Assembly: GCA_000004985.1 (NCBI GenBank)
Contig: GG738852.1
From: Naegleria gruberi
Lineage: Eukaryota
Length of the DNA: 64,000 nt
Strand: one strand, 5' to 3'
In this document: positions 527 through 57,664 of the stretch, one piece after another
Numbering within the stretch: position 1 is the stretch's first letter
How the letters are laid out: the number at the start of each line of letters is the position of its first letter
Made by a program: the position numbers and the translations under genes
Notes under the pieces: model-generated
The model's input: only the letters and a program-made list of their open reading frames with translations
Database searches by the model: none
What the model was told of the DNA's origin: nothing

Positions 527-3500
527 ATGAAGAAACATCAATGCATTAAAAATATAATAACAATAGAAAAAAATATTGCAACAATGTCCACTCAACCAAA
601 GACACTCACTGTTGGTCTCTTCCCATATCTTCCTTCTTGGAATGAAAATGGCAACGAAGTTAAATTGATCAATTTGATCAAGGATGTTTTGCCAACTCAG
701 GTTTCCGGATATAATATCGAATATACCGAATTTGATTGTTACAGTGATGCTAGTCTTCAAAGTCTTCCAGATGTTTTCTCAACTGATAGCATTTTCCTTC
801 CATATCTTGTTTCTTTGGGTGGTGTCAAGAGTTTGGATGAATCATTGGTTCGTGGTGTTACTGGTGATTTGCATAGTTTTGTTTCCTCAAGTGCCTCTGT
901 CAATGGTTCCGTTTATGGTTTCCCACAATACTTGTGCTCAAACTTTTTATTGTCCTCACCAAATGCTACTCAACAAGCATCTTCCCTTTTAGAATTGGCT
1001 CAAAAGGTTGGTTATGAACAAATTGTTTATCCAGATGTTGCCTCTTCTAGTTCTTTCACAGTTTTCGGATTGTATCAACAATTACTCCAATCATCATCAT
1101 CAGCTGCAGTTGATATCAAGGCCTCTGATCTTCCACAATCTGGTGACCAAGTCAACAAGGATATCACTCAAAAATATAGAACCATTTTGGATTCAACAGT
1201 TGTTGCCTCTCAAAGAGAATATATTAACTCTGTAAAGCAAGGTAAACCAATTTCAAACTACTATGTCGGATATAGTGAAAGTATGTGTGAAATTAAGGAT
1301 ATCATCAGAGATCAACAATACAATGTTCAACTCATTGGTACCTCTGATAAGCCATACGTTTATACTGATGTTTTGGCTTTGAATTCCAATTTGTGTGATG
1401 AAAAGCAAAAGGTTGCTGTTGAAGTTATCAAGAATTTATTGACTAATACTTTAGTTTTGGACTTGTTGGGTCTCGGATTAACTCTCCCAGCCAACAAGAA
1501 TGGTATTGCTCATTTGGCTAAATCATCAAACTTTTATGCTCAATTGAGCCAACAATTCGATGCCAAGGAAAGTGAAGTTAGAGTTTTGAGATGTGTTGAC
1601 TTTGCTAACAAGGAAGTTAAGAATTGTGCTGGTGTCTTGAGACCATTCCTTCAACATATTGCTGTTGCTACTTTGCGTTGTTTGACTGCTGACACTGTCG
1701 AAAAGGCTAAGAGTGGTCACCCTGGTATGCCAATTGGTATGTCACCAATTGCCTATGTTTTGTGGAAGTTCTTCTTCAAATCATCTAAGGATGATGTCAA
1801 TTGGTTGAACAGAGATAGATTTGTTTTGAGTAATGGTCACGGTTGTACATTGCTTTATGCCATGTTGCACCTCACTGATTGTAACTTGAGTTTGGATGAT
1901 CTCAAGAATTTCAGAAGTTTGCATTCCAAGACTCCTGGTCACCCAGAATATGGTCACACTGAAGGTGTTGATGCTACTACTGGTCCATTGGGTCAAGGTG
2001 TTTGTAATGCTATTGGTATGGCTCTCTCTGAAGCTCACTTGGCTGCTCGTTTCAATAAGGATGGACAAAATATCTTTGATCACCACACCTATGTTTTCCT
2101 TGGTGATGGTTGTTTGATGGAAGGTGTTGCTATGGAAGGTCTCTCATTTGCTGGTCACCAAAAGTTGAACAAGTTGATTGTTTTCTATGATGACAATAGT
2201 ATTACTATTGATGGTAAGACTGAATTGACCTTTACTCAAAATACTCCAGAAGTCATGAGAGGTTTTGGATGGCACGTAATTGTTGTCGACAAGGCTGATA
2301 ATGACTTGGTTGGTATTAAGGAAGCTATTTTGGAAGCTCACACTGTTACTGACAAGCCAATCATGATCGTTTGTAAGACTACAATTGGTTATTCCTCAAA
2401 GGTTCAAGGTACTGCTAAGGTTCACGGTTCTCCATTGGGTGCTGATGGATTGAAGAATTTGAAGGAAACTTGTGGTTTCACTGGTAATGATTTCTTCCAT
2501 GTTCCAGAAATTGTCAGAAAGGACTTTGCTACTGTCATTAATAGAAATAGTGAAAAGCTCTCTCAATGGAAGCAAGTTAAATCTGCCTATGATACCACTC
2601 ATGCTACTGAATCCCAACTCCTCCAAAGAATGATTAATCACGAATTGGAAGGTGATGTTATGGAAAAGTTGCCAAAATACCTCGAACAAAAGAAGATTGC
2701 TACCAGATCTACATCTCAACAAGTTTTGAATGCCATCTATCCACTCATTCCTTCTCTCGTTGGTGGTTCAGCTGACTTGACTCCATCCAACTTGACTGAT
2801 GTAACTGGATGTCAAGATTTCCAACCAAACAATAGAGTTGGTAGATATATCAGATTTGGTGTCCGTGAACATGCCATGGTTGCTATTGCCAATGGTATTC
2901 TCTATCATGGTGTTCTTAGAACCTATGTTGGTACATTCTTGAACTTTGCTTCATATGCTTTGGGTGCTATCAGATTGAGTGCCTTGTCTGGTCTTCCAAA
3001 TATTTATGTTTTCACTCATGACAGTATTGGTCTTGGTCAAGATGGTCCAACTCACCAACCTGTTGAAGTTTTACCAATGTTGAGAGCCATTCCAAATCAC
3101 ATTGTTTTCAGACCTGCTGATGGTAGAGAAACCAGTGGTGCTTATTTGTGGGCTGTTCAATCAAAGAAGACTCCATCCTCAATGATTCTTTCTCGTCAAG
3201 ATTTGCCACAATTGACTGGTACTGATATTTCAAAGGTTGCTTTGGGTGCCTATGTTATTCAAGGTGATGCTACTCCTGATGTTGTCCTTGTTGGTACTGG
3301 TTCTGAAGTTTCCCTCATGGTTGAAGCTGCTGAAAAGTTGAAGGCTAACCTTAAGGTTAACGTTGTTTCCATGCCAAGTTGGGAATTGTTTGTTCGTCAA
3401 TCAGAAGAATACAGGAAGACTGTCTTCCCAGATGGTATTCCAGTTGTCAGTGCCGAAGCTTCATCAACCTTTGGTTGGACAAGCTTTGCTCACTATGCTG

Positions 3501-3661
3501 TTGGTATGACTACTTTCGGTGCTAGTGCTGCTGCTGAAGAAGTTTACAAACTCCTCAAGATTACCTCAGACAATGTTGCTGAAAAGGCCACCAAATTGGT
3601 TACCAAGTATGGTAAGCAAGCTCCAAGACTCAGCTTGTCTCTTGTTGGTGAAGAACTCTAA
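527..3661 (+). CDS. tkt: Transketolase (TPP-dependent) carrying a ~370-aa N-terminal extension of unknown affinity
   Basis: 1044-aa single ORF. Residues ~375-1044 align end to end with yeast/bacterial transketolase (TADTVEKAKSGHPG, GDGCLMEG, THDSIGLGQDGPTHQP, C-terminal domain). ATG at 527; a second in-frame ATG at 584 (acaATGtcc) is an equally plausible start. Residues ~20-375 are not transketolase-like. Confidence 0.88.
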   Translation: MKKHQCIKNIITIEKNIATMSTQPKTLTVGLFPYLPSWNENGNEVKLINLIKDVLPTQVSGYNIEYTEFDCYSDASLQSLPDVFSTDSIFLPYLVSLGGVKSLDESLVRGVTGDLHSFVSSSASVNGSVYGFPQYLCSNFLLSSPNATQQASSLLELAQKVGYEQIVYPDVASSSSFTVFGLYQQLLQSSSSAAVDIKASDLPQSGDQVNKDITQKYRTILDSTVVASQREYINSVKQGKPISNYYVGYSESMCEIKDIIRDQQYNVQLIGTSDKPYVYTDVLALNSNLCDEKQKVAVEVIKNLLTNTLVLDLLGLGLTLPANKNGIAHLAKSSNFYAQLSQQFDAKESEVRVLRCVDFANKEVKNCAGVLRPFLQHIAVATLRCLTADTVEKAKSGHPGMPIGMSPIAYVLWKFFFKSSKDDVNWLNRDRFVLSNGHGCTLLYAMLHLTDCNLSLDDLKNFRSLHSKTPGHPEYGHTEGVDATTGPLGQGVCNAIGMALSEAHLAARFNKDGQNIFDHHTYVFLGDGCLMEGVAMEGLSFAGHQKLNKLIVFYDDNSITIDGKTELTFTQNTPEVMRGFGWHVIVVDKADNDLVGIKEAILEAHTVTDKPIMIVCKTTIGYSSKVQGTAKVHGSPLGADGLKNLKETCGFTGNDFFHVPEIVRKDFATVINRNSEKLSQWKQVKSAYDTTHATESQLLQRMINHELEGDVMEKLPKYLEQKKIATRSTSQQVLNAIYPLIPSLVGGSADLTPSNLTDVTGCQDFQPNNRVGRYIRFGVREHAMVAIANGILYHGVLRTYVGTFLNFASYALGAIRLSALSGLPNIYVFTHDSIGLGQDGPTHQPVEVLPMLRAIPNHIVFRPADGRETSGAYLWAVQSKKTPSSMILSRQDLPQLTGTDISKVALGAYVIQGDATPDVVLVGTGSEVSLMVEAAEKLKANLKVNVVSMPSWELFVRQSEEYRKTVFPDGIPVVSAEASSTFGWTSFAHYAVGMTTFGASAAAEEVYKLLKITSDNVAEKATKLVTKYGKQAPRLSLSLVGEEL

Positions 3662-44327: not shown

Positions 44328-44963
44328 ATGACCTTTTCCAATAACCTAATCATTCACGTTCATTATGATCACCAACAACAATACCAGAACAATAATCATT
44401 CTTTTCAAGAAGAAGAAATTAAACAATCGGAATCTATTCCATATCATGCAATTTTAACTTTTAATGGAAAACAATATAAATGTAGTGTTGGAAGAAATGG
44501 AATCAATCAAAAGGTTGGTGAGGGCGATGGAATTACACCCATTGGAGAATATTCATTGAGAATGGCCTTTTACAGATCAGATAGGGTTGATCCATCAATT
44601 ATTTCAAAAATTAAAGGAATTCCTCTTATTGAATTGAAAGAAAATTATGGTTGGTGTGATGATATGTTAGATTCACTGCATTACAATAGATTAATACAGC
44701 TTCCTGTATTGGAAGGATTATCGAGTGAAAAATTGTGGAGACAAGATCATTTGTATGACCTTTTTGCAGTAATAGGTTATAATGATAATCCAATTCAATT
44801 AGGAAAGGGAAGTGCAATCTTTTTCCACATTGCATCTGAAAATTATGGACCAACTTCAGGATGTGTTGCCATGCAGAGGGATGATTTAATTGAAGTATTT
44901 TCTAAATTGACTGCCTTTACCATTTTGAAAATTTCACAATCCTCTTATCCTTATCTGAAATAA
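44328..44963 (+). CDS. L,D-transpeptidase (YkuD/ErfK) catalytic-domain protein, bacterial-type; no signal peptide
   Basis: 211 aa with ATG at 44328. GEGDGITPIGEYSL and FFHIASENYGPTSGCVAMQRDDLIEVF fit the YkuD H...(S/T)xGC(I/V)xM catalytic signature. Only 57 bp downstream of the HDAC stop. Confidence 0.55.
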   Translation: MTFSNNLIIHVHYDHQQQYQNNNHSFQEEEIKQSESIPYHAILTFNGKQYKCSVGRNGINQKVGEGDGITPIGEYSLRMAFYRSDRVDPSIISKIKGIPLIELKENYGWCDDMLDSLHYNRLIQLPVLEGLSSEKLWRQDHLYDLFAVIGYNDNPIQLGKGSAIFFHIASENYGPTSGCVAMQRDDLIEVFSKLTAFTILKISQSSYPYLK

Positions 44964-48089: not shown

Positions 48090-49240
48090 TTACAATCTAT
48101 TTGAAGCACCACCACAAGTATTTCTCATAATAATTGATTCAGATGAAACACCTGGACCGAAAGCAACAGCAATAGACCATTCATTATTGAGATATTGTTG
48201 AGTTCTTCTATATAATTCCATTACAAACATAATGGTAACAGAGGACATGTTACCATATCTTGTCATGATATCCCATGAGGCCTTCAAATCTTCACGATTC
48301 ATTGTCAATGCCTTTTCAACTGCATACAAGATTGCCTTACCACCTGGGTGAGCCAAAACATTACAATTTTCCTTCAAAACAATTTCATCCTTGTGTTGAG
48401 ACTTCTTCAACAAGGTATTAATGTAATCCTTGAGTGAGTTGGTAATGATTTGTGGAACTTCAGGTGACAAGCTCAAGTGGAAACCATCATGGAAAACTTT
48501 CCATGTCATGCATTCATCAGTATTTGGAGTAGTGTAAGAGTGAGTATCGAATAATTCATAAACAGGTTTTTCACCCTTTTGAGCTTGTGGTTGAGAACCA
48601 ACAACCATTGAGGCAACACCATCACCAAAGATGGCACTAACAATCTTTTCATCAGTATTATTGGAAATTCTAAAGTGAACAGATGACAATTCAATACAAA
48701 TGACCAAAACTCTATTCTTTGGATTGAGAGAAGTCAAAGCACGAGCAGCCTTCAAAGTAATCAAACCAGCAGCACATCCTGACATGTTGATTGGGAAATA
48801 TTCAACAGCGTGAGACAATCCAAGTCTATCCATAAACTTCAAGTGAATATTTGGAACAGCAATACCAGTTGAGGTACAAGTAATGAGGTGAGTAATTTCC
48901 TTAACATCACCCTTCCATTCATCAATGGCCTTAGAAGCAGCTTGATAAGCCAATTCTGGGGCAACCTTCAAGAAGATATCATTTCTACTTTCAATAGTCT
49001 TCAAATCATTGGTAGAATTCTTGGTAAAATCGAAAGCAACACATCTTTCCTTAATTTCACAGCCCTTGAACAAGTTGTGAATTCTTTCCTTGATCTTTTC
49101 GTCAGCAGTTCCGTAATCCTTCATGATACCTTCGAAGAGTTCTTCTTGAGTCTTTCTTGGAGGATTGGCAACACCAATACCAAGAATGTAAGCATTGCTT
49201 GGGTTCTTCATGTTGGCCTTTCTGGCATGAGCAGCAAATT
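48090..49240 (-). other. Type III PKS (chalcone/stilbene synthase-like) domain forming the C-terminus of the hybrid PKS
   Basis: Catalytic triad context Cys (INMSGCAAGLITL), His (LAHPGGKAIL), Asn (RYGNMSSVTIMFV), plus the GFGPG-like AFGPGVSSES near the C-terminus. Domain boundaries are approximate. Confidence 0.8.
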
Positions 49241-52200
49241 CCTTAACTGGAACACTTTCAGGAACAACAGTCTTAGTGAGTGGAGTGTTATCAGTGGTGG
49301 TAGTAGTGACTGTTGTGGTAGCAGTAACAACTGGAGTTTGTTGAGCGACAACAGGTTTTGGTTGTTCAGCAACAACTGGTTTTGGTTGAACTGGAGTAGC
49401 AGCAGAGGCAACAGCAGTTGGAGTAGCAGTCTTGGTTTGCTTGGCTGGTTCAGATTTTTTAGAAGTCTTAGATTCCTTCTTTTCAGATGAAGCAGCTCCC
49501 ATCTTGTCCATAATCTTAGCAGCAAGTGACTTGACAGTTGTGTCCTTCTTCAAGATATCAATGGTTGTGATTGAACCACGAGGATACATCTTATCCAACC
49601 AGTTCTTCAATTGAGTAGCCATCAAAGAGTCCATACCGTATTGTCTGAGTGGTTCAGCAATTTCAATAGCTTCTAATGGAATACCCAAAATCTTGGCCAA
49701 TTGAGTGGCAATCATTTGATCGACAGTTAATTGAGAAGTAGAAGCATCCATACCAGCATCTTGAGCAGTTTCAATAAACAATTCACCGAACATCTTCTTC
49801 AAATGCTTAAAGTTATCAGAGTGATCCTTCCAATCAATACAACTGATAATCTTTTGTGGTTGAGCATCAGTTTGTTGAGAAATCAATGCCTTTTCAAGAC
49901 ATTTAACCAAGAGTGGAATTGGCATAGAAATGAAACCTCTTGATCTCAAAATAACCTTAGTTGAGTATTGTCTTGAAACAAAACCATCATCAATGGCACC
50001 AAAGTTAACACTCAATGCTGGTAAATTCTTTGACTTTCTGTAGTGGGCAAGAGCATCCAAAATACAATTGGCAGCAGCATAATTGGATTGTTCCATATTA
50101 CCATTGATAGCAACAAAGCTGGAGAACATGACAAAATATTTGATAGAGTTTTCATTCAAAGTAGCATGGTGAACATTCCAAGCAGAAACAGCCTTAGCTT
50201 GAATGACATTGTTGAACTTGGTTTCAGTCATGTTATTGATGGAACAATCTTCATATACAGTAGCAAGATGGAAAACTGATTCCAATGGTGGCATATTCAA
50301 AGTGGTACGAACTTGAGTAATGATATTTTCAACATTTTGTCTGTTAGAAACATCACATGGCAAAACTTGAATATTCAAAGAAGAGTCAGTCTTGATCAAT
50401 TCTTCAATTCTATCCTTTGATTGACCTTCAGTCAATTTACCACTTCTTGAGAGAATGACTAAATTCTTAACTTGCTTTTGTTCAATGAGCCATAAAACGA
50501 GGGACAAACCAACACCACGAGTACCACCAACAACCAAATGAGTCTTGTCAGAAGAGAAGGTCAATCCACGCATTTCTTCCTTCAATTTTTCATATCTTGG
50601 AATGGAGGTTTCCAAATCTTCATTGGTCATGTTGAGGACAATCTTACCAATGTGCTTGGCATGAGCCATAAAATTGAAAGCATCATGAAGCTTTTCCTTA
50701 TCATAGACAACATATGGCAATGGGAAGAGTCTCTTTTGCTCCATCAAATCCATAACTTCTCTGAACATTTGTTGAACAAGTTCTGGCTTTTCGTCCATCA
50801 TTCTGTCCAAATCAACTGAGGCATAGGTCAAGTTACGATGCATTTGTTGCAAATTGACACAAGTACCATCATAGATATCTCTAATACCAATTTCGACAAA
50901 TCTACCATATGAACCCAATGATTCAAAGTTGGCAGACAACATATCAGTACCAGCCAAAGAGTTCAAAACAACATCACAACCCTTTCCATTAGTGAATTTC
51001 ATAACATCATCACGGAAACTAGTTGAACGAGAATCAGTAGTGTAATGAACCTTATAGGTTTCATCTTGTTCCAAGAAGGTTCTCTTCTCACCACGACCAG
51101 CTGTACCAATGGTGACGGCACCAAAGTGATTAGCAATTTGAACAGCAGACAACCCAACAGCACCAGCTGCAGAGTGAATCATACAGGTTTCTCCCTTTCT
51201 CAATCTGGCAACATGAACCAAACCATACCATGAAGTCAAGAAGGCAGATGGAATAGTTGAAGCTTGTTCGTAGGACATCCAATCTGGTTTCTTAATAGCG
51301 AGACTTGACTTGACATTGACATAGGATGAGAAACATTTTCTAGCAATACAGACAACCTTATCACCAATCTTAAAGTCAGTAACAGATGGGCCAACTTCAA
51401 CAATGACACCAGAACATTCCAAACCGAATGGTGGATTCCATTTACCACCTCTTCTAAAAGCCTTATCTGGAATTCTACCCAATGAGAACATTAAATCCTT
51501 GAAACTCAAAGCAGAAGCCTTAACTGAAATTCTAACTTCATCAGCTTCAAGTGGAACAAATTCTTCAACTTCATGGAATGACAATTCACTAACTGAACCA
51601 ATTGAGTTGGACTTTAAGGTAACTGGAGCGTTTGGCTTTTGAATCAATGTTGATTTGACAACCTTCAAATACTTCAAGTCACCACAAGCAGCTAAAGCCA
51701 ATTCGTTATATTCCAAATTGTCACAATTTACAAAGAGGTTAGAAATAGTTTGGGAAGCAATGTCCATGTTGATACCTTCAGAGAAATCGAACAAGAAACT
51801 CTTAATGTTTGGATGTTCACTTCTGAAAGTTCTACCAATACCAACAAATTGAGCAGATGATGGAACAGAGTAGGTGAGTTGAGCACCCTTGGTGACAATC
51901 CACAATTTAGTTTCACATGATTCATGGTCAAGTTCAATCTTGATCATTTCCTTAATAATTTGCATCAATCTCCAAGAGTTGGATTCTTGAGTGACTTGAT
52001 TATCTTCAGCAACGTTAGCAACAAACACAATACCAGAAATTTCTTGATTTTGAGCGAGCATGTTAACAGCTTGTTCAGCAGAAACAATTGTAGTAGAAAC
52101 AGCAGACAAGGAAGAGACAACAGCCTTGGTCATGTCAGATTCAGCAACATCAGAGACAACAATCCATTGTTGAGCAACAGATTGTTCTTCTTGTTCGACT

Positions 52201-55200
52201 GGAGCAGTCATTTCAGTCAATTCTTCCTTATTGGCGGAAGTCCAAGCAACATCATACATACAATCATTAGAAGTAATGGTAAAGACAGTTGGACAAGATG
52301 CTTGAGTAATAGCTCTACACTTGACGCACAAGAATGAAGCAATTGGAACAATAGAACCTTGCTTGTGGCCATAAATAAAGACGTCACCTTCAAGTTCATA
52401 TTGAGATTGATTAGTCATCTTGCAGTAAACTGAAATACTATCCATGTCTGGGACCAATTGGTTCAAACAAACTTCAGTATTCAAAACACAAGTATCAATT
52501 GAAGATGGAATGTATACGATAGCATCTTCTTCAGCAATAGCGATCAATGATTGCAAACAAGAATCCAAAATACCAACTTCCAAAACAGACTTGTGTCTCT
52601 TAGTATCCAAGAGACTCTTTGGTCCTTCATCGAATTTCTTCTTCAATGACAATTCACTGACACCTTCATTCTTACCAACATAAATCTTATCCAATTGTTG
52701 GAAAACTGGACCATATTCAAGACCCATCTTTCTCAATTTAGAGTAGAGTTCATTCTTTGACATTGAGACTTCCATGCAACGTGGCTTGACTTCATCCAAG
52801 TTTGGATGAGTCTTTAAATTGGTTGGTGGCAACATTCTCAAGAAACACTTATAGTGATCGAGCCAATCTTCCAAACCTCTCTTACTCTTAATTTCAATCA
52901 TTTGACTATTTTGAGTTCCGTGAACTAATGGAGTAACATCAGTTTCAACAATGAAACCACCTGGTGCAGTTTGAGATAAGGATAGAGCACCCTTAAAGTC
53001 ACATCCTTGCAAAATGAATTGCTTTGGAAGTTCCTTTTGTTCAGAGTCCTTTTCATTAGCTCTGATTTGAGCAACAGCAGCGTGGAGAGACATTAAAACA
53101 TAGGAAACACCTGGATAAATGATATCACCTTGAATAACGTGATCCTTCAAGTTAGGGAAGTGATCCAATGAAATTCTATTTTGGAATGTAACACTACCAG
53201 ATCTCAAACTCTTGTGTCCAACCAAATTAGATGGATAACCTCTTCTCCATTCAGCAGCTTGTTCTTCAGTTTGATTCCAAATCATTTGACTTCTATCCCA
53301 TGGGTAGAATGGAACTTTAACCTTATTGAAAAGGTGATTCCAGTTGACATTTTCTCTGAAGGTAACATTGTGAATGAATCCATTGACGAATAAATCTCTA
53401 GCACATTGGAGCATAGTTTCTTGTTCATCAACGAAACGCTTCAAAGTAAAGTAACACTTGGTATCTTCAATACCCAATTCAGAAGCACATTCCTTAATGG
53501 AAGCAGCAAGAACTGGATGAGGACTCAACTCAACAAATCCTCTGTAACCTTGTTTTAACAAATCAGTAATTGGATCAGCAAAGAGAACAGCTTGTCTAAC
53601 ATTACCCCACAAATAGTGTTCATCCATATTTTCAACAGTGGTATCATACAATTTACCAGTAACAGTAGAGTAGAGTGGAATGAGGGTTGGTTTACCACGG
53701 CTGACTGGTGAGAAATTCTTCAAAGCATTCAACATTTCTTCCTTAATTGGTTCTTGATATTGAGAGTGGAATGCACAATAACCTCTCAACTTTCTACAAA
53801 AGACTCCCTTACCCTTGGAAATATCTTGTTCCAACTTGTTAATGAGTTGAGGAGAACCAGCCAAAGTACATGATCCAGGACCATTGATAGCAGCAACAAC
53901 AACAGCAGAACGATCTTCACCACTCAAATATTCATCCAAGTAGAGTTCACATTGAGCTGGAGAGACACCAACAGCCAACATGTTACCAGATCCACAGGTC
54001 TTTTCTTGCAAGGTACTTCTCCAATACAAGATGGTAATGGCTTCTTCCAAAGTATAGACACCAGCAGCATAGGCACTACCAACTTCACCAGCAGAGTGAC
54101 CAACAACGACAGATGGATGAATATTCCAAGCTTTCATCATGGCATATAAACCAGCTTGGAGGAAGAAGATAGCTGGTTGAGCATAGAGTGGGTGATCCAT
54201 ATCATCATCAGTTAAACATTGTTCCTTAATCCACTTTCCAACAAGAGACCATCCAGACAATTGACTGAACAATCTATCACATTCATCCAAACAATTTCTG
54301 AAAATTTCATACTTGTTATAGAGTTGGATACCCATGGATTTAGTTTGTGGACCTTGACCTGGGAAGACAAAGACGAATCCCTTATCACTTCTATTTGAAT
54401 TATGTACAATACCCTTAGATCTAAGAGTATCAGCAGATTCGGATGCAATTGTCTTCAATTGTTTGACACAATCTTCAACAGAGCTAGTAATGATAGTACT
54501 TCTCAATTTGTGATGAGATCTAAATTGATTTTGAACAGTAAAGACATCAATCATAGAATCCTTATCATGGATACATTCCTTGCTTGATAAATCTTGAGCA
54601 AGACTTTGGAGGGATGGAATGGATTGTGCAGACAACATCATCATGACCTTTTCGCTTTCCTTTTCTGGCAATTTTGGTGCTTCCAACTTTGGTTGCTCGA
54701 ATTCTTCCAAAATGACGTGAGCATTGACACCACCAATACCCATAGAGTTAATACCAAAGACCAATGGCTTGGAACCTCTCTTCTTAACCAATGGAATTGG
54801 TTCAGTAACAACTCTCATATTATACTTATCCAATGGAATCTTTGGATTCAACTTTTTAATATTGGCAACTGGACATAAGAGTCTCTTTTCCATCATGAGA
54901 ACAGCCTTAATTAAACCAGCGACACCAGATGCACATTCCAAGTGACCAATATTACCCTTAACAGAACCAACATAGATTGGTTTGGATCTATTTGGACCGG
55001 AGAGAACTTCACCAATGGCAACAGTTTCAACAACGTCACCCTTAGCAGTACCAGTACCGTGACATTCAACATAATCAACTTCGAATGGTGACAAGATACT
55101 AGCAGTTTCTTCTGGTAATCTATCATAAGCTTTCTTAATATTCAAAGCTTGAGTAATTGAGGAAGGAGTGATCAAAGAATCTTCAGCAGCACCATCAACA

Positions 55201-56066
55201 TTGACACTTGAACCACGAATGACACCATAAATACGGTCACCACTTTCAAGAGCCTTCTTCAATGGCTTTAAAACAACTAAACCAGCACCTTCACCTCTAA
55301 CGAAACCGTTGGCAGATTCATCGAATGGTTTACACTTACCATCCTTTGATAAAACACCAACTTTACTAAACTCGCAATAAGGAGATGGAGAAAGGATTAA
55401 AGAGACACCACCTGCAATAGCCATTTCACACTCATTATTCTTCAAGCTCATACATGCTTGATGAACTGCAACGAGAGAAGATGAACAAGCAGTATCAATA
55501 CTCATAGATGGACCTCTAAAATCATAGAGGAATGAAATACGGTTAGAGGCAATACTCAAAGTATTACCATTGTGAGTGTATGAAGTAATTCTTTCAAAAT
55601 TATTGTTATCCAATTGAACAGTGTAAAAGTCCAATTGACCAATACCGATAAAGACACCAGTTTCATCGAACAAATGACCATTTGTGCTATCTTTCTTTGG
55701 TCTAATACCAGCATCTTCTAAACATTCCCATGTTAATTCTAAAAGTAAACGTTGTTGTGGATCCATAACTTCCACTTCTTTTTGACCAACACCCAAAACA
55801 CTACAATCGAAAGCCTTGATTTGATCCTCGGGTATGTAAGCACCACGAGATGAAGACATTAATCCAGGAACATTGGAAGCATCAGTAGATTCCCAATTTT
55901 GAGATTTCCATCTCCATTCAGGTGTATCGGTAATGTGTTCTTGGCATTCAGTGAGGAGCTTCCAAAATTCGTGCTTATCTTTAGCTCCAGGTAAACGACA
56001 GGAAAGACCAACAATGGCATAACTGTCAGCAGTGATATGATTGTGATTATTTGTAGTTGTAGACAT
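48090..56066 (-). CDS. Hybrid polyketide synthase: reducing type I PKS (KS-AT-DH-ER-KR-ACP) with a C-terminal type III PKS (chalcone-synthase-like) domain; single 8-kb exon
   Basis: First ATG at 56064-56066 (MSTTTNNHNH...); ORF-track M at 56102 is TTG. KS: DTACSSSLVAV, ECHGTGT, GHLECASG. AT: GHSAGEVGSAYAAG. DH: LDHFPNLKDHVIQGDIIYPG. ER: GLECSGVIVEVG...IHSAAGAVGLSAV. KR: VVGGTRGVGLSLVLWL. ACP: QYGMDSLMATQL. A Pro/Thr/Val-rich linker follows. Type III domain, about 48090..49240: MSGCAAGL (Cys), HPGGKAIL (His), YGNMSSV (Asn), AFGPGV. No SAM-methyltransferase motif found. Confidence 0.9.
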   Translation of the reverse strand: MSTTTNNHNHITADSYAIVGLSCRLPGAKDKHEFWKLLTECQEHITDTPEWRWKSQNWESTDASNVPGLMSSSRGAYIPEDQIKAFDCSVLGVGQKEVEVMDPQQRLLLELTWECLEDAGIRPKKDSTNGHLFDETGVFIGIGQLDFYTVQLDNNNFERITSYTHNGNTLSIASNRISFLYDFRGPSMSIDTACSSSLVAVHQACMSLKNNECEMAIAGGVSLILSPSPYCEFSKVGVLSKDGKCKPFDESANGFVRGEGAGLVVLKPLKKALESGDRIYGVIRGSSVNVDGAAEDSLITPSSITQALNIKKAYDRLPEETASILSPFEVDYVECHGTGTAKGDVVETVAIGEVLSGPNRSKPIYVGSVKGNIGHLECASGVAGLIKAVLMMEKRLLCPVANIKKLNPKIPLDKYNMRVVTEPIPLVKKRGSKPLVFGINSMGIGGVNAHVILEEFEQPKLEAPKLPEKESEKVMMMLSAQSIPSLQSLAQDLSSKECIHDKDSMIDVFTVQNQFRSHHKLRSTIITSSVEDCVKQLKTIASESADTLRSKGIVHNSNRSDKGFVFVFPGQGPQTKSMGIQLYNKYEIFRNCLDECDRLFSQLSGWSLVGKWIKEQCLTDDDMDHPLYAQPAIFFLQAGLYAMMKAWNIHPSVVVGHSAGEVGSAYAAGVYTLEEAITILYWRSTLQEKTCGSGNMLAVGVSPAQCELYLDEYLSGEDRSAVVVAAINGPGSCTLAGSPQLINKLEQDISKGKGVFCRKLRGYCAFHSQYQEPIKEEMLNALKNFSPVSRGKPTLIPLYSTVTGKLYDTTVENMDEHYLWGNVRQAVLFADPITDLLKQGYRGFVELSPHPVLAASIKECASELGIEDTKCYFTLKRFVDEQETMLQCARDLFVNGFIHNVTFRENVNWNHLFNKVKVPFYPWDRSQMIWNQTEEQAAEWRRGYPSNLVGHKSLRSGSVTFQNRISLDHFPNLKDHVIQGDIIYPGVSYVLMSLHAAVAQIRANEKDSEQKELPKQFILQGCDFKGALSLSQTAPGGFIVETDVTPLVHGTQNSQMIEIKSKRGLEDWLDHYKCFLRMLPPTNLKTHPNLDEVKPRCMEVSMSKNELYSKLRKMGLEYGPVFQQLDKIYVGKNEGVSELSLKKKFDEGPKSLLDTKRHKSVLEVGILDSCLQSLIAIAEEDAIVYIPSSIDTCVLNTEVCLNQLVPDMDSISVYCKMTNQSQYELEGDVFIYGHKQGSIVPIASFLCVKCRAITQASCPTVFTITSNDCMYDVAWTSANKEELTEMTAPVEQEEQSVAQQWIVVSDVAESDMTKAVVSSLSAVSTTIVSAEQAVNMLAQNQEISGIVFVANVAEDNQVTQESNSWRLMQIIKEMIKIELDHESCETKLWIVTKGAQLTYSVPSSAQFVGIGRTFRSEHPNIKSFLFDFSEGINMDIASQTISNLFVNCDNLEYNELALAACGDLKYLKVVKSTLIQKPNAPVTLKSNSIGSVSELSFHEVEEFVPLEADEVRISVKASALSFKDLMFSLGRIPDKAFRRGGKWNPPFGLECSGVIVEVGPSVTDFKIGDKVVCIARKCFSSYVNVKSSLAIKKPDWMSYEQASTIPSAFLTSWYGLVHVARLRKGETCMIHSAAGAVGLSAVQIANHFGAVTIGTAGRGEKRTFLEQDETYKVHYTTDSRSTSFRDDVMKFTNGKGCDVVLNSLAGTDMLSANFESLGSYGRFVEIGIRDIYDGTCVNLQQMHRNLTYASVDLDRMMDEKPELVQQMFREVMDLMEQKRLFPLPYVVYDKEKLHDAFNFMAHAKHIGKIVLNMTNEDLETSIPRYEKLKEEMRGLTFSSDKTHLVVGGTRGVGLSLVLWLIEQKQVKNLVILSRSGKLTEGQSKDRIEELIKTDSSLNIQVLPCDVSNRQNVENIITQVRTTLNMPPLESVFHLATVYEDCSINNMTETKFNNVIQAKAVSAWNVHHATLNENSIKYFVMFSSFVAINGNMEQSNYAAANCILDALAHYRKSKNLPALSVNFGAIDDGFVSRQYSTKVILRSRGFISMPIPLLVKCLEKALISQQTDAQPQKIISCIDWKDHSDNFKHLKKMFGELFIETAQDAGMDASTSQLTVDQMIATQLAKILGIPLEAIEIAEPLRQYGMDSLMATQLKNWLDKMYPRGSITTIDILKKDTTVKSLAAKIMDKMGAASSEKKESKTSKKSEPAKQTKTATPTAVASAATPVQPKPVVAEQPKPVVAQQTPVVTATTTVTTTTTDNTPLTKTVVPESVPVKEFAAHARKANMKNPSNAYILGIGVANPPRKTQEELFEGIMKDYGTADEKIKERIHNLFKGCEIKERCVAFDFTKNSTNDLKTIESRNDIFLKVAPELAYQAASKAIDEWKGDVKEITHLITCTSTGIAVPNIHLKFMDRLGLSHAVEYFPINMSGCAAGLITLKAARALTSLNPKNRVLVICIELSSVHFRISNNTDEKIVSAIFGDGVASMVVGSQPQAQKGEKPVYELFDTHSYTTPNTDECMTWKVFHDGFHLSLSPEVPQIITNSLKDYINTLLKKSQHKDEIVLKENCNVLAHPGGKAILYAVEKALTMNREDLKASWDIMTRYGNMSSVTIMFVMELYRRTQQYLNNEWSIAVAFGPGVSSESIIMRNTCGGASNRL

Positions 56067-57664
56067 TCTTTGATCTATATGGTTGTTATCGTGACTATAC
56101 AATTGATTAATTGATCAAAGTGTTTGTGTTGTTGTATATAGATTCTCTATATAATGTTTTGGGTTGATTTTGTGTCTTTTTTTCAGACTTGCAATTTGTC
56201 TAAGGTGGCCTTGCAGTTCTCTTAAAGGTTCAAATTTGAGTACTATGCTGAAGTGTGCTATTGTGACACAAAAATTGAAACTAGCTGTTGTTGTGGAGAG
56301 TCCTCTCTCTTCGAATCAACATTCAACATCTCTCTCCTTTCTTACATCACCAGCACACAGAAAGTAGAGTGCTCTCTCTTGAGGAATCAACAACATTGCT
56401 GTTGATGATATTCATGAAGAATCTGAAAAGATCTTTTGCCAACAACCATCCACTTGGTTAAAAGAAAGTTTGAGGAATCAAATGTTAACTTTTGAGTGAA
56501 AGAAGGCACTTCTTCTCGGCATTTTCCAGAAATCAACGGACACTTTGGAATAAATTCACCGTACATGTAGGCCATTTCTATCGAGTATTTGATAGTTCCA
56601 AATTGCTGGAATGTTTGAAATTCCAAATCAGCAATTGGGTTACGATCAAATTTCTAAATTTTTCAAGCTGTATTTTGCTTCTTAATACCTTACTGTAAGT
56701 TTGAATTGCATTTTCAATGTGTTTCTTAATGAAGTGTGCAGTGGGTCATTGCAATAAGGAGTAATCGATAGAGTTACTACTAGTCGATTGAAAAGATAAT
56801 TTAAGGAACTTAATATCCTTCCTCCCATTCATATTAACAGATAACAAGACAGATCATATATTGGCTCATATTGCATTAATACTAAACAGTAAGCGCTGAT
56901 GCTTCAAGTTGTTTTTACAGCCATTGGTACACTGCAAAGGAATATAGGGCAGAACTTTCATATTGATGGTTCTCTTGAAGCTTCATATGATTGAAAGGTT
57001 CTTCATCCAGCAACACCTCATCATCAGAAAGCATAATATTCATGATTATTAATCATTCAATGTCCTCTCAACGTCCACGTTTCTTTTATAGATTAAATTC
57101 CAATCCTAGAAGCCAATACAAATCATGCTTATTGTATAGAAATTTATTGTAATTTTCTATTGCGTTCCGATAATAATAAAAGATAATCACACTATTCAAC
57201 TTTAAATTTTCGAAAGCATAGAATACAGCCCACCATTTCAATGCATTCTTTATTCTGTGCCTGAACCTGTGTGACAACCCAATTTTGTACAGACACTTTG
57301 AATTTTCCTGTGAATTGGACATAAAACTTGATGTGCGATTGTATACTATTTGAGGATTGTTAGATATGGAATCAACAAAGATAAGTGGTAATTATCTGGC
57401 TGCAATTATGTTAGAAAAAATGTCTCAATCTCTTACACTTGTATTCTTGTGAAACCTTAATGAAATCAGAGCATGAATCAACAAATTTATTAAAATAATA
57501 ATAAAAAAATTGTCAAATAATACCTCTTAAATGTTGATCATATTTGAACCCATTTTACATTCTCTTTATATTCAAAACTTTTCATCCCTAAAGTAAAAGT
57601 GAAAATTAACTTTACACCTGCTATTCAAAAATTTGCTTGAAAGTAAAAAAAATTGAATTAAAAA

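What the first reader, a model, noticed from the sequence alone, without database searches (positions are those of the whole stretch)
48090..56066. Steely-type hybrid megasynthase: reducing type I PKS fused in one 8-kb exon to a chalcone-synthase-like type III PKS
A single 2658-codon exon encodes KS-AT-DH-ER-KR-ACP followed, after a Pro/Thr/Val-rich linker, by a complete type III PKS domain with the Cys/His/Asn triad (MSGCAAG, HPGGKAIL, YGNMSSV). This fusion is so far known essentially only from the dictyostelid Steely enzymes. There the type I part hands an acyl-ACP primer directly to the type III domain to build alkyl-resorcinol/phloroglucinol signals of the DIF-1/MPBD type. The codon usage here (TTG/AAG-rich) is not typically dictyostelid, and no SAM-methyltransferase motif is seen, so this may be a new lineage or new member of the class with a distinct product. 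Flanking genes (metallophosphoesterase, GDP-mannose dehydratase) do not look like tailoring enzymes, so I see no obvious cluster.
Basis: partly seen in the sequence, partly recalled or inferred. Interest (0 to 1): 0.7.

Follow-up and report, generated by a model that had tools for sequence, protein, structure and literature searches.

The report
Steely-type hybrid polyketide synthase in Naegleria
The soil amoeba Naegleria gruberi has one 8-kb gene that fuses a fatty-acid-synthase-like polyketide synthase to a chalcone-synthase-like enzyme, a design the literature describes as unique to the unrelated Dictyostelium slime moulds, and relatives including the brain-eating N. fowleri carry it too.

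Summary
Window 48090-56066 (minus strand) is one uninterrupted 2658-codon ORF encoding KS-AT-DH-ER-KR-ACP, a T/A/V/P-rich linker, and a type III PKS domain with an intact triad (Cys2431, His2573, Asn2606).

The window is Naegleria gruberi NEG-M, not a dictyostelid. The protein is exactly XP_002680948.1 / UniProt D2V518, publicly named only "beta-ketoacyl synthase". Full-length orthologues exist in N. fowleri (79% identity) and Willaertia magna (69%), and a partial gene model in N. lovaniensis.

The type III domain's best solved-structure match, by sequence and by predicted fold, is Dictyostelium Steely1 (2H84). It shares Steely1's cavity substitutions.

It is not a clear StlA/StlB orthologue:
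- It has no methyltransferase domain, which the two dictyostelid Steely proteins scanned do have.
- Type III identity to Steely is only about 34%.
- Its type I domains resemble bacterial PKS modules as much as they resemble Steely.
- Tree support for a shared clade is weak (57% for type III, 43% for KS).

Most likely it works like Steely: acyl-ACP is handed directly to the type III domain, giving an alkyl-resorcinol, acylphloroglucinol or pyrone. That mechanism and the product are inferred, not shown.

No paper in the searched library reports a Steely-type enzyme outside Dictyostelia. I rate it a new member of a known kind, of moderate interest.

The parts
48090..56066 (-). Complete single-exon CDS of the hybrid synthase: 2658 aa plus stop. 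It equals N. gruberi XP_002680948.1 / EFC48204.1 / UniProt D2V518.
   Evidence: ORF list and translation. Exact-sequence match to the public protein.
54495..56018 (-). Ketosynthase (aa 17-524, including the C-terminal extension). Active-site Cys194 (DTACSS), His336 (HGTGT) and His375 (NIGH).
   Evidence: Pfam PF00109, PF02801 and PF16197. Motifs and codons checked.
53385..54374 (-). Acyltransferase (aa 565-894). Ser658 lies in GHSAG. The CAFH motif at 764 is of the malonyl-specific xAFH type rather than YASH.
   Evidence: Pfam PF00698 at 185 bits. Motifs. The specificity reading rests on established AT motif knowledge, not on a test here.
52287..53207 (-). Dehydratase (aa 954-1260). His976 lies in HVIQGDIIYP (the HxxxGxxxxP motif), and DSCLQ is at 1168.
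   Evidence: Pfam PF21089 and PF14765. Motifs.
51582..52286 (-). Inter-domain region (aa 1261-1495), probably the structural KR sub-domain. It has no methyltransferase. The two dictyostelid Steely proteins scanned carry a detectable MT domain at this position.
   Evidence: No MT hit at E<=10. MT domains found in P0244 and P0246. An NCBIfam mycobacterial Pks2 model spans from this region through ER, KR and ACP. The region is only 46-60% identical among the heterolobosean orthologues.
50634..51545 (-). Enoylreductase (aa 1508-1811), with the NADPH motif HSAAGAVG at 1631.
   Evidence: Pfam PF08240, PF00107 and PF13602. Motif.
49989..50543 (-). Ketoreductase (aa 1842-2026), with GTRGVG at 1848 and the catalytic Tyr1996 in YAAAN.
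   Evidence: Pfam PF08659 at 166 bits. Motifs.
49470..49745 (-). Acyl carrier protein (aa 2108-2199). The phosphopantetheine site is Ser2147 in GMDSL. No thioesterase follows it.
   Evidence: Pfam PF23297 and PF00550. Motif. No TE family, and the only GxSxG motif in the protein is the AT one.
49215..49469 (-). Low-complexity linker (aa 2200-2284: T19, A13, V13, P11, K10 of 85 residues) joining ACP to the type III domain.
   Evidence: Composition and alignment: 31-40% identity with 22-24 gap positions against N. fowleri and Willaertia, compared with 71-90% identity in the catalytic domains. The reading frame is kept in all three species.
48117..49214 (-). Type III PKS (chalcone-synthase-fold) domain, aa 2285-2650. 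Triad: Cys2431 (nt 48774-48776), His2573 (48348-48350) and Asn2606 (48249-48251). The gatekeeper Phe2480 is kept. The cavity has His2464 (CHS T197), Trp2522 (G256) and Leu2531 (F265), as in Steely1.
   Evidence: Pfam PF00195 and PF02797. PDB sequence search, best hit 2H84 Steely1 at 269 bits. Residue mapping to CHS2 numbering. AF2 model with pLDDT 88, best structural match 2H84 (TMt 0.94, rmsd 1.8 A).

Best explanation
This is a native, expressed-looking Naegleria gruberi gene for a Steely-type hybrid megasynthase.

**Shown**
- One polypeptide carries a complete reducing type I module (KS-AT-DH-ER-KR-ACP) with all catalytic motifs intact.
- It has no thioesterase and no methyltransferase.
- A flexible linker leads to a C-terminal type III PKS domain with the CHS fold, an intact Cys-His-Asn triad and a Steely1-like active-site lining.

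**Inferred mechanism**
1. The AT loads malonyl units.
2. The type I part works iteratively, like a fatty-acid synthase, and builds a saturated short- or medium-chain acyl-ACP.
3. With no thioesterase to release it, the acyl chain passes directly from the phosphopantetheine arm on Ser2147 to Cys2431 of the type III domain.
4. That domain adds two or three malonyl-CoA units and cyclises the chain to an alkyl-resorcinol, acylphloroglucinol or alkyl-pyrone.

This is the mechanism proposed for Dictyostelium StlA and StlB, and demonstrated in trans for Azotobacter ArsA handing acyl chains to ArsB and ArsC.

**Not determined**
- The chain length, the cyclisation mode and the biological role.
- A signalling, defensive or cyst-associated phenolic lipid is the most plausible class of product.
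- Whether the gene shares a fused ancestor with the dictyostelid Steely genes or arose by an independent fusion.
For: **Architecture and motifs.**

**Native gene**
- Exact match to XP_002680948.1, with the neighbouring ORFs matching N. gruberi NEG-M proteins on the same 938-kb scaffold.
- Codon usage correlates with other window genes at r=0.90. The gene has the strongest codon bias in the window (Nc 30.9).

**Conservation**
- Full-length orthologues with the same Pfam set exist in N. fowleri (79%) and Willaertia (69%). The Willaertia copy is also one uninterrupted 7881-nt ORF.
- Catalytic domains are 71-90% identical, while the linker is 31-40% identical and stays in frame.
- All 27 CHS-numbered positions tabulated, including the active-site lining, are the same in the three Naegleria sequences. 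Willaertia differs at one of them, position 255.

**Type III domain**
- Steely1 (2H84) is the best solved relative by sequence (269 bits against 182) and by fold.
- It shares T197H, G256W, F265L, I254M and a retained S338 with StlA.

**Expression of the orthologue.** W. magna gene 1237 (best hit "beta-ketoacyl synthase [N. gruberi]", with a CHS-like domain) is described as expressed at a high level and is listed under both transcripts and proteins (PMC7285305).

**Mechanistic precedent.** StlB type I to type III hand-off is proposed in PMC9489281. Direct ArsA-ACP to ArsB/ArsC transfer is described in PMC6274091.
Against: - No biochemical, transcript or product data exist for the N. gruberi gene itself.
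- ACP to type III transfer is only proposed even for Steely. StlB's type III domain can be cleaved off and work alone.
- Differences from dictyostelid Steely could mean a different programme or product: no MT domain, only about 34% identity in the type III domain, and changes at cavity positions 165, 194, 216 and 263.
- No tailoring genes lie nearby, and there is no conserved synteny with Willaertia.
- A phosphopantetheinyl transferase was not looked for.
Confidence: 0.75

Rival explanations
1. Convergent look-alike. The Naegleria/Willaertia gene arose by an independent fusion of a bacterial-type (Mas/Pks2-like, MT-less) reducing PKS module to a protist type III PKS. On this view it is Steely-like in design and probably in mechanism, but it is not a member of the StlA/StlB lineage.
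For: - There is no MT domain. The DH-to-ER gap is about 300 aa against about 660 aa in the two Steely proteins scanned.
- KS, AT, ER and KR score as well or better against myxobacterial and other bacterial PKSs than against Steely. For example, ER scores 240 against 188 bits and KS about 390 against about 340.
- From StlA's side, Naegleria (261 bits) is no closer than the FAAL-ACP-CHS proteins of other protists (250-262 bits).
- Bootstrap support for a joint clade is only 57% for type III and 43% for KS.
- Other ACP-to-type III fusions with different front ends exist in Percolomonas, probably in Acrasis (only an ACP-CHS fragment was seen and it was not Pfam-scanned), in Physarum (architecture read by eye and from sibling sequences, not Pfam-scanned), and in the GC-rich contig L002. 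Such fusions therefore arise repeatedly.
Against: - From the Naegleria side, the best type III matches outside its own genus group are fused proteins: P0243 (295 bits, with the same MT-less architecture) and Steely (250-269 bits). Most unfused type III PKSs score lower: the best in the word-indexed search was 217 bits. The exception is the stand-alone 392-aa metagenomic P0245 at 258 bits.
- Both NJ trees do place Naegleria, P0243 and Steely together.
- The fastest-evolving domains, DH and ACP, have Steely as their best non-heterolobosean hit, though weakly.
- The cavity residues are shared with StlA, although H197 and W256 are common in bacterial-type type III PKSs generally.
Confidence: 0.45
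2. The two halves work independently. The type III domain is proteolytically released, or simply ignores its own ACP, and uses free acyl-CoA starters. The type I part would then act as an ordinary fatty-acid or polyketide synthase.
For: - StlB is cleaved late in development, and its isolated chalcone-synthase domain still supports product formation (PMC9489281).
- The long, poorly conserved linker would be accessible to proteases.
Against: - The type I part has no thioesterase or other release domain, so it has no obvious way to off-load product other than through the type III domain.
- The fusion and its reading frame are kept in N. gruberi, N. fowleri and Willaertia despite rapid linker divergence. 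This argues that linkage is under selection.
Confidence: 0.15
3. Annotation or assembly artefact, or bacterial contamination: two genes wrongly joined, or a non-Naegleria insert.
For: - Type I PKS domains score highly against bacterial PKSs.
- The N. lovaniensis gene model is only 1591 aa.
Against: - The ORF is continuous, with a chance probability of about 1e-69.
- The same full-length fusion occurs in independent assemblies of N. fowleri and Willaertia.
- The neighbours on both sides are eukaryotic genes: a DEAD-box helicase, a Polo kinase, a histone deacetylase and a ubiquitin hydrolase.
- Codon usage and GC3 are native.
- A Percolomonas transcript shows that a heterolobosean transcribes a PKS-type III fusion, of a different architecture, as one complete mRNA ORF.
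Confidence: 0.02

Closest known systems
Dictyostelium Steely enzymes: StlA (Steely1, makes MPBD) and StlB (Steely2, makes the DIF-1 precursor THPH)
   Same: - One polypeptide with an N-terminal reducing type I PKS/FAS (KS-AT-DH-ER-KR-ACP), no thioesterase, and a C-terminal type III PKS with a Cys-His-Asn triad.
- Steely1's type III domain is the best solved-structure match by sequence and by fold.
- The cavity substitutions T197H, G256W, F265L and I254M are shared.
- The host is also a soil amoeba.
   Different: - The host belongs to a different eukaryotic supergroup (Heterolobosea/Discoba rather than Amoebozoa).
- There is no C-methyltransferase domain, and the protein is 350-420 aa shorter (2658 aa against 3003 and 3076).
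- Type III identity is about 34%.
- The type I domains are not closer to Steely than to bacterial PKSs.
- The product and biological role are unknown.
- No ChlA- or DmtA-like tailoring genes are nearby.
Uncultured-eukaryote-like metagenomic protein P0243 (JGI 3300062347, contig Ga0606064_0590, locus L001)
   Same: - It has the same MT-less order, KS-AT-DH-ER-KR-ACP-type III.
- It is the best non-heterolobosean match for the type III domain (295 bits, 39-43% identity), for AT (273 bits) and for KR.
- Its contig is AT-rich (37% GC) with gene-poor flanks.
   Different: - The organism is unknown.
- The predicted protein lacks the KS N-terminus; the Pfam match starts at profile position 26.
- It groups with Steely at only 46% bootstrap.
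Azotobacter vinelandii ArsA-D: type I FAS (ArsA/ArsD) plus type III PKSs ArsB and ArsC
   Same: - A reducing type I synthase hands its acyl-ACP product directly to the catalytic Cys of a type III PKS. The products are alkylresorcinols and alkylpyrones (PMC6274091).
- The producer is a cyst-forming soil microbe, and the products are cyst-coat lipids.
   Different: - The proteins are separate, encoded in a bacterial operon, rather than fused.
- The acyl chains are long (C10-C22).
- Homology of the Naegleria residue Trp2522 to the ArsB Trp281 cyclisation switch was not tested.
Other protist ACP-linked type III hybrids: Percolomonas cosmopolitus P0388, Acrasis kona P0250, Physarum P0279
   Same: The C-terminal type III PKS sits directly downstream of a carrier-protein domain in one polypeptide. 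The hosts are also amoeboid or heterolobosean protists.
   Different: - The front ends differ. Percolomonas has FAAL-ACP-KS-AT-MT-ACP. Physarum appears to have FAAL-ACP only; it was not Pfam-scanned, and the reading rests on the sequence and on the sibling protein P0252.
- These are non-reducing, with no DH, ER or KR.
- Their type III domains fall in a different, well-supported clade (Percolomonas with Acrasis, 100%).

Membership tests
Steely-type hybrid type I / type III PKS (defined by architecture) | A single polypeptide and ORF joins a type I PKS/FAS module to a type III PKS. | tested here: met
   One 2658-codon ORF, identical to the public gene model. The full-length fusion is conserved in N. 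fowleri and Willaertia.
Steely-type hybrid type I / type III PKS (defined by architecture) | A fully reducing type I module, KS-AT-DH-ER-KR-ACP, with intact catalytic motifs. | tested here: met
   Pfam domains. Cys194, His336, His375, Ser658, His976, the HSAAGAVG motif, Tyr1996 and Ser2147 are all present.
Steely-type hybrid type I / type III PKS (defined by architecture) | A C-terminal type III PKS domain with the CHS fold and the Cys-His-Asn triad at homologous positions. | tested here: met
   Cys2431, His2573 and Asn2606 align to CHS2 positions 164, 303 and 336. They are invariant in a 40-sequence alignment. The AF2 model matches 2H84 at TM 0.94 and rmsd 1.8 A.
Steely-type hybrid type I / type III PKS (defined by architecture) | No thioesterase or other release domain between ACP and the type III domain. 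| tested here: met
   No TE family in Pfam. The only GxSxG motif is the AT one. Residues 2200-2284 are a low-complexity linker.
Steely-type hybrid type I / type III PKS (defined by architecture) | Direct transfer of the acyl chain from ACP to the type III active-site cysteine. | not testable with these tools
   This needs enzymology. It is inferred from the missing release domain and from the StlB and ArsA precedents.
Dictyostelid StlA/StlB lineage (membership by descent) | A methyltransferase domain between DH and ER, as found in the two dictyostelid Steely proteins scanned here. | tested here: not met
   PF08242 and PF13489 are found in P0244 and P0246. They are absent from the N. gruberi protein at E<=0.01, and from residues 1200-1510 even at E<=10.
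Dictyostelid StlA/StlB lineage (membership by descent) | The type III domain is monophyletic with the Steely type III domains. | tested here: inconclusive
   NJ places Naegleria/Willaertia with Steely, P0243, P0245, P0248 and P0258 at 57% bootstrap. The reciprocal scores are asymmetric.
Dictyostelid StlA/StlB lineage (membership by descent) | The type I part is monophyletic with the Steely type I part. | tested here: inconclusive
   KS NJ groups the six fused proteins at 43% bootstrap, and long-branch attraction is possible. Per-domain scores are equal to or lower than those against bacterial PKSs. No other dictyostelid, fungal or animal PKSs were available for comparison.
Dictyostelid StlA/StlB lineage (membership by descent) | The product is an alkyl-resorcinol (MPBD) or acylphloroglucinol (THPH) developmental signal. 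| not testable with these tools
   No metabolite data are available. The active-site lining resembles StlA's, but this does not fix the product.

The most novel reading that the evidence does not exclude
Carrier-protein-tethered type III PKS megasynthases may be a widespread toolkit of free-living amoeboid protists that has not been recognised as such, rather than a Dictyostelium curiosity. The examples seen here span at least two eukaryotic supergroups:
- the reducing Steely type in Dictyostelia, in Naegleria/Willaertia and in an uncultured eukaryote;
- a FAAL-KS-AT-MT type in Percolomonas and probably in Acrasis;
- a FAAL-ACP type in Physarum.

On this reading the fusions spread by gene transfer among soil amoebae or arose repeatedly. 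The Naegleria enzyme would make a phenolic-lipid signal or cyst component that controls encystment or the amoeba-flagellate-cyst transitions. It would then be a parasite-specific target in N. fowleri, because humans have no type III PKS.
Probability: 0.3. Interest if true: 0.7.

Novelty: new member of a known kind. Interest (0 to 1): 0.52.

Why it matters
- **It corrects a standing claim.** Papers from 2022 and 2025 still call Steely fusions "unique" or "not reported from other organisms". A complete, conserved and apparently well-expressed example exists in Heterolobosea, including the lethal human pathogen N. fowleri.
- **It allows a test of origin.** Did type I to type III channelling arise once and move between soil amoebae, or arise repeatedly?
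- **It supplies a natural variant.** This MT-less form could be used in engineering. StlB is already used to make cannabinoid precursors.
- **It points to an unknown metabolite.** A Naegleria phenolic polyketide may act in signalling, defence or encystment. Humans have no type III PKS, so the N. fowleri orthologue could be a selective target if it proves essential.

Tried and rejected
**Dictyostelid origin of the window.** Rejected. Exact protein matches place it in N. gruberi NEG-M.

**Word-indexed homologue searches.** Searches with the type III domain alone and with the KS alone returned no long fused proteins, not even the N. fowleri orthologue. All hits to the 540-aa KS query were under 950 aa, and all listed hits to the type III query were about 400 aa or less. 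The tool seems to favour targets of query-like length. These searches therefore could not show Steely relatives, and the exhaustive representative search was needed.

**Hidden or degenerate methyltransferase between DH and ER.** None found at E<=10. phmmer of that region hits only P0243 and the structural regions of bacterial PKSs.

**Biosynthetic cluster.**
- The N. gruberi neighbours are a metallophosphoesterase, a GDP-mannose dehydratase, a YkuD-domain protein, a histone deacetylase, a DEAD-box helicase, a pyridine-nucleotide disulphide oxidoreductase and a Polo kinase.
- The Willaertia neighbours are entirely different.
- There is no cluster and no synteny.

**Bacterial contamination or recent transfer.** Rejected on codon usage and eukaryotic context.

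**Resolving single against multiple origin.** NJ trees with Kimura distances and 100 bootstraps gave weak support. No ML software or wider eukaryotic PKS sampling was available.

**Austin et al. 2006 (PMC2864586).** Not held, so the Steely1/2 active-site discussion could not be cited.

**ArsB Trp281 equivalence to Trp2522.** Not tested, because no ArsB or ArsC sequence was retrievable.

**Literature.** Searches for Naegleria with Steely, chalcone synthase, type III, polyketide and the accession numbers found no paper recognising the fusion. The only trace is a supplementary figure legend listing a CHS-like domain in the Willaertia orthologue.

Full report
**1. The observation**

The region holds one long ORF, on the minus strand, at 48090..56102. 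Its first ATG is at 56066. It encodes 2658 residues and ends with a stop at 48090-48092. The window's stop-codon frequency is 0.058 per codon, so an open frame of this length has a chance probability of about 1e-69.

Pfam finds the following domains in order, all far above their cut-offs:

| Domain | Residues |
|---|---|
| KS | 17-403 |
| KS C-terminal extension | 407-524 |
| AT | 565-894 |
| DH | 954-1199 |
| ER | 1508-1811 |
| KR | 1842-2026 |
| ACP | 2108-2199 |
| Chal_sti_synt_N | 2286-2493 |
| Chal_sti_synt_C | 2512-2649 |

Every catalytic signature is intact:
- KS: Cys194, His336 and His375.
- AT: Ser658 in GHSAG, and a CAFH motif of the malonyl type. The specificity reading rests on established motif knowledge.
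- DH: His976 in HVIQGDIIYP.
- ER: HSAAGAVG.
- KR: GTRGVG and Tyr1996.
- ACP: Ser2147 in GMDSL.

There is no thioesterase. Residues 2200-2284 form a T/A/V/P/K-rich linker. The only addition is the strand, which the finding did not state: the gene is on the minus strand.

**2. Whose gene it is**

The translated ORF is identical, residue for residue, to N. gruberi NEG-M XP_002680948.1 / EFC48204.1 / UniProt D2V518. That entry is named only "beta-ketoacyl synthase". Five further ORFs of the window match N. gruberi proteins exactly, and a sixth falls in the same 90% cluster as an N. gruberi protein, all on the same 938-kb scaffold. The public gene model is therefore the same single exon.

The gene looks native:
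- Its RSCU correlates at r=0.90 with the other window genes, which range from 0.79 to 0.97.
- Its GC3 is 0.31, like its neighbours.
- It has the strongest codon bias in the window, with Nc 30.9, AAG/Lys 0.81 and TTG/Leu 0.60.

It hints at good expression, though that is an inference.

The neighbours are ordinary eukaryotic genes: a metallophosphoesterase, a GDP-mannose dehydratase, a histone deacetylase, a DEAD-box helicase, a disulphide oxidoreductase and a Polo kinase.

**3. Conservation**

Full-length orthologues with the same domain set occur in N. fowleri (2702 aa, 79% identity) and Willaertia magna (2626 aa, 69%). A partial gene model occurs in N. lovaniensis (1591 aa; 84% identity in the type III domain). 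The Willaertia gene is also one uninterrupted 7881-nt ORF. Its neighbours are unrelated to those in N. gruberi, so there is no conserved cluster.

Catalytic domains are 71-90% identical between the genera. The ACP-to-type III linker is only 31-40% identical, has many indels, and always stays in frame. That is the pattern expected if the physical linkage is under selection.

All 27 CHS-numbered positions tabulated, including the active-site lining, are the same in the three Naegleria sequences. Willaertia differs at one of them, position 255.

In W. magna, "gene 1237" has "beta-ketoacyl synthase [N. gruberi]" as its best hit. The paper describes it as highly expressed and lists it under both transcripts and proteins. 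Its supplementary Figure S5 legend lists a "CHS-like domain" without further comment (PMC7285305).

**4. The type III domain**

Against all PDB sequences, the best match is the Steely1 C-terminal domain (2H84) at 269 bits, E=6e-79. The next hit, a stilbene synthase, scores 182 bits. An AlphaFold2 model (pLDDT 88, pTM 0.89) has 2H84 as its best structural match, with TM 0.94 normalised to the target and rmsd 1.8 A over 365 columns. Plant CHS-family structures follow at TM 0.84-0.88.

Mapping to alfalfa CHS2 numbering through the 1I8B alignment gives:

| CHS2 position | N. gruberi residue | Note |
|---|---|---|
| Cys164 | Cys2431 | catalytic |
| His303 | His2573 | catalytic |
| Asn336 | Asn2606 | catalytic |
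| Phe215 | Phe2480 | gatekeeper kept |
| Thr197 | His2464 | as in StlA |
| Gly256 | Trp2522 | as in StlA |
| Phe265 | Leu2531 | as in StlA |
| Ile254 | Met | as in StlA |
| Ser338 | Ser | kept, as in StlA |

StlA has the same residues at all of these positions. The two proteins differ at positions 165, 194, 216 and 263. His197 and Trp256 are also near-invariant across the bacterial-type type III PKSs aligned, so they are not Steely-specific.

**5. Is it a Steely by descent?**

Here the evidence is mixed.

An exhaustive search of 1.84 billion representative proteins with the type III domain, followed by look-ups and Pfam scans, showed the following:
- After the Naegleria/Willaertia group, the best hit is P0243, a metagenomic 2467-aa protein (295 bits). 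It has the same KS-AT-DH-ER-KR-ACP-type III order and no MT. It sits on a 37%-GC contig with gene-poor flanks.
- Next come the dictyostelid Steely proteins of D. purpureum (262 bits) and Cavenderia fasciculata (252 bits), with a stand-alone 392-aa metagenomic type III PKS, P0245, at 258 bits between them.
- Most other unfused type III PKSs score lower. The best in the word-indexed search was 217 bits.

Both dictyostelid proteins carry a Pfam-detectable methyltransferase between DH and ER. The N. gruberi protein has none, even at E<=10. Its DH-to-ER spacer is about 300 aa against about 660 aa.

Type III identity to Steely is about 34%. This is no higher than to the Percolomonas domain, although the bit scores are higher. 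From StlA's side, Naegleria scores 261 bits, the same as the FAAL-ACP-type III proteins of other protists (250-262 bits).

NJ trees place Naegleria/Willaertia, P0243 and Steely together, but with weak support: 57% bootstrap for the type III clade including three short relatives and 43% for KS. Long-branch attraction is possible.

Domain by domain, KS, AT, ER and KR score as well or better against bacterial PKSs than against Steely. Only DH and ACP weakly prefer Steely. An NCBIfam model of mycobacterial Pks2 aligns continuously across the region before ER and on through ER, KR and ACP.

I conclude that the protein is a Steely-type enzyme by architecture and probably by mechanism. Its membership of the StlA/StlB lineage is unproven, and one feature of that lineage, the MT domain, is absent.

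**6. How it most likely works**

Shown: the parts list above, with no release domain.

Inferred:
1. The reducing module acts iteratively, like a fatty-acid synthase, to build a saturated acyl-ACP.
2. With no thioesterase, the chain is transferred from the phosphopantetheine arm on Ser2147 to Cys2431.
3. The type III domain adds two or three malonyl-CoA units and cyclises the chain to an alkyl-resorcinol, acylphloroglucinol or pyrone.

This is the scheme proposed for StlB (PMC9489281). Direct acyl-ACP to type III transfer is documented for Azotobacter ArsA feeding ArsB and ArsC, whose alkylresorcinols build the cyst coat (PMC6274091).

Chain length, cyclisation mode and role cannot be read from the sequence. 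Naegleria also encysts, so a cyst-associated or signalling phenolic lipid is a reasonable hypothesis, but it is only a hypothesis.

The alternative, that the type III domain is cleaved off and works alone as late-stage StlB does, cannot be excluded.

**7. Context and novelty**

The searched library has no paper linking Naegleria to Steely, to chalcone synthase or to a type III PKS:
- The Naegleria pangenome paper counts 16 PKSs without noting the fusion.
- Recent Dictyostelium papers call the Steely fusions "unique" and "not reported from other organisms".
- The library lacks most subscription journals, so a prior report elsewhere cannot be ruled out.

The sequence itself has been public since the N. 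gruberi genome was released, and its domains are visible to any domain scan. This is therefore a new member of a known kind, in an unexpected supergroup and with a variant (MT-less) architecture. It is not a new kind of system.

The database search also showed that C-terminal, ACP-linked type III domains occur with other front ends:
- Percolomonas has FAAL-ACP-KS-AT-MT-ACP-type III.
- Acrasis yielded only an ACP-type III fragment of the same clade, which was not Pfam-scanned.
- Physarum and several metagenomic proteins have FAAL-ACP-type III. Pfam was run only on P0252; the Physarum architecture was read from its sequence.
- A 63%-GC contig has a reducing-PKS fusion whose type III domain falls in another clade.

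Tethering a type III PKS to a carrier protein therefore looks like a recurrent solution in amoeboid protists.

**8. Verdict**

Interest is moderate at 0.52. The finding corrects a repeated claim of uniqueness and opens a tractable question in Naegleria, including N. fowleri, but the enzymology is predictable from Steely and nothing functional has been shown.

Noticed in passing
window 44328-44963 (+): A 211-aa ORF carries a YkuD L,D-transpeptidase catalytic domain (Pfam E=5e-11). This is a peptidoglycan-crosslinking enzyme family that is unusual in a eukaryotic genome, so the gene may be bacterial in origin.
   Followed up: no
window 527-3661 (+): The 90% cluster of this 1044-aa ORF contains both the N. 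gruberi "transketolase" XP_002680761 (1025 aa) and the N. gruberi thiaminase-I chain solved as PDB 4HCW (357 aa). The large protein therefore includes the known thiaminase-I domain.
   Followed up: partly
protein P0241 (Cymbomonas tetramitiformis KAK3233920.1), not in the window: This predicted green-alga protein of 4818 aa has 12 separate type III PKS matches. It is either a tandem array merged by gene prediction or a real poly-type III protein.
   Followed up: no
proteins P0388/P0257 (Percolomonas), P0250 (Acrasis kona), P0279 (Physarum), and P0252, P0270, P0271, P0273 (metagenomes): Other carrier-protein-linked type III PKS hybrids exist in protists. Pfam-scanned: Percolomonas has FAAL-ACP-KS-AT-MT-ACP-type III, and metagenomic P0252 has FAAL-ACP-type III. 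Not Pfam-scanned: Acrasis (an ACP-type III fragment of the Percolomonas clade) and Physarum and P0270, P0271, P0273, which look like FAAL-ACP-type III from their sequences or source names. I found no description of these in the searched literature.
   Followed up: partly
locus L002 (ENA ERZ17173254, NODE_242735), protein P0284: A 63%-GC contig encodes a 2482-aa KS-AT-DH-ER-KR-type III fusion. Its type III domain falls outside the Steely/Naegleria group, which suggests an independent fusion in an unknown, possibly bacterial, organism.
   Followed up: partly
window 48090-56066 (-) compared with other window genes: The PKS gene has the strongest codon bias of the 15 window genes checked (Nc 30.9; AAG is 81% of Lys codons; CTG 0 and CTA 1 of 230 Leu codons). 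This is comparable to central-metabolism genes in the window and suggests high expression.
   Followed up: partly
tool behaviour: The word-indexed homologue search returned only targets of roughly query-like length when given single domains. It missed the N. fowleri and Willaertia orthologues that the full-length query and the exhaustive search found. Single-domain queries with that tool can give a false impression that no fused relatives exist.
   Followed up: yes
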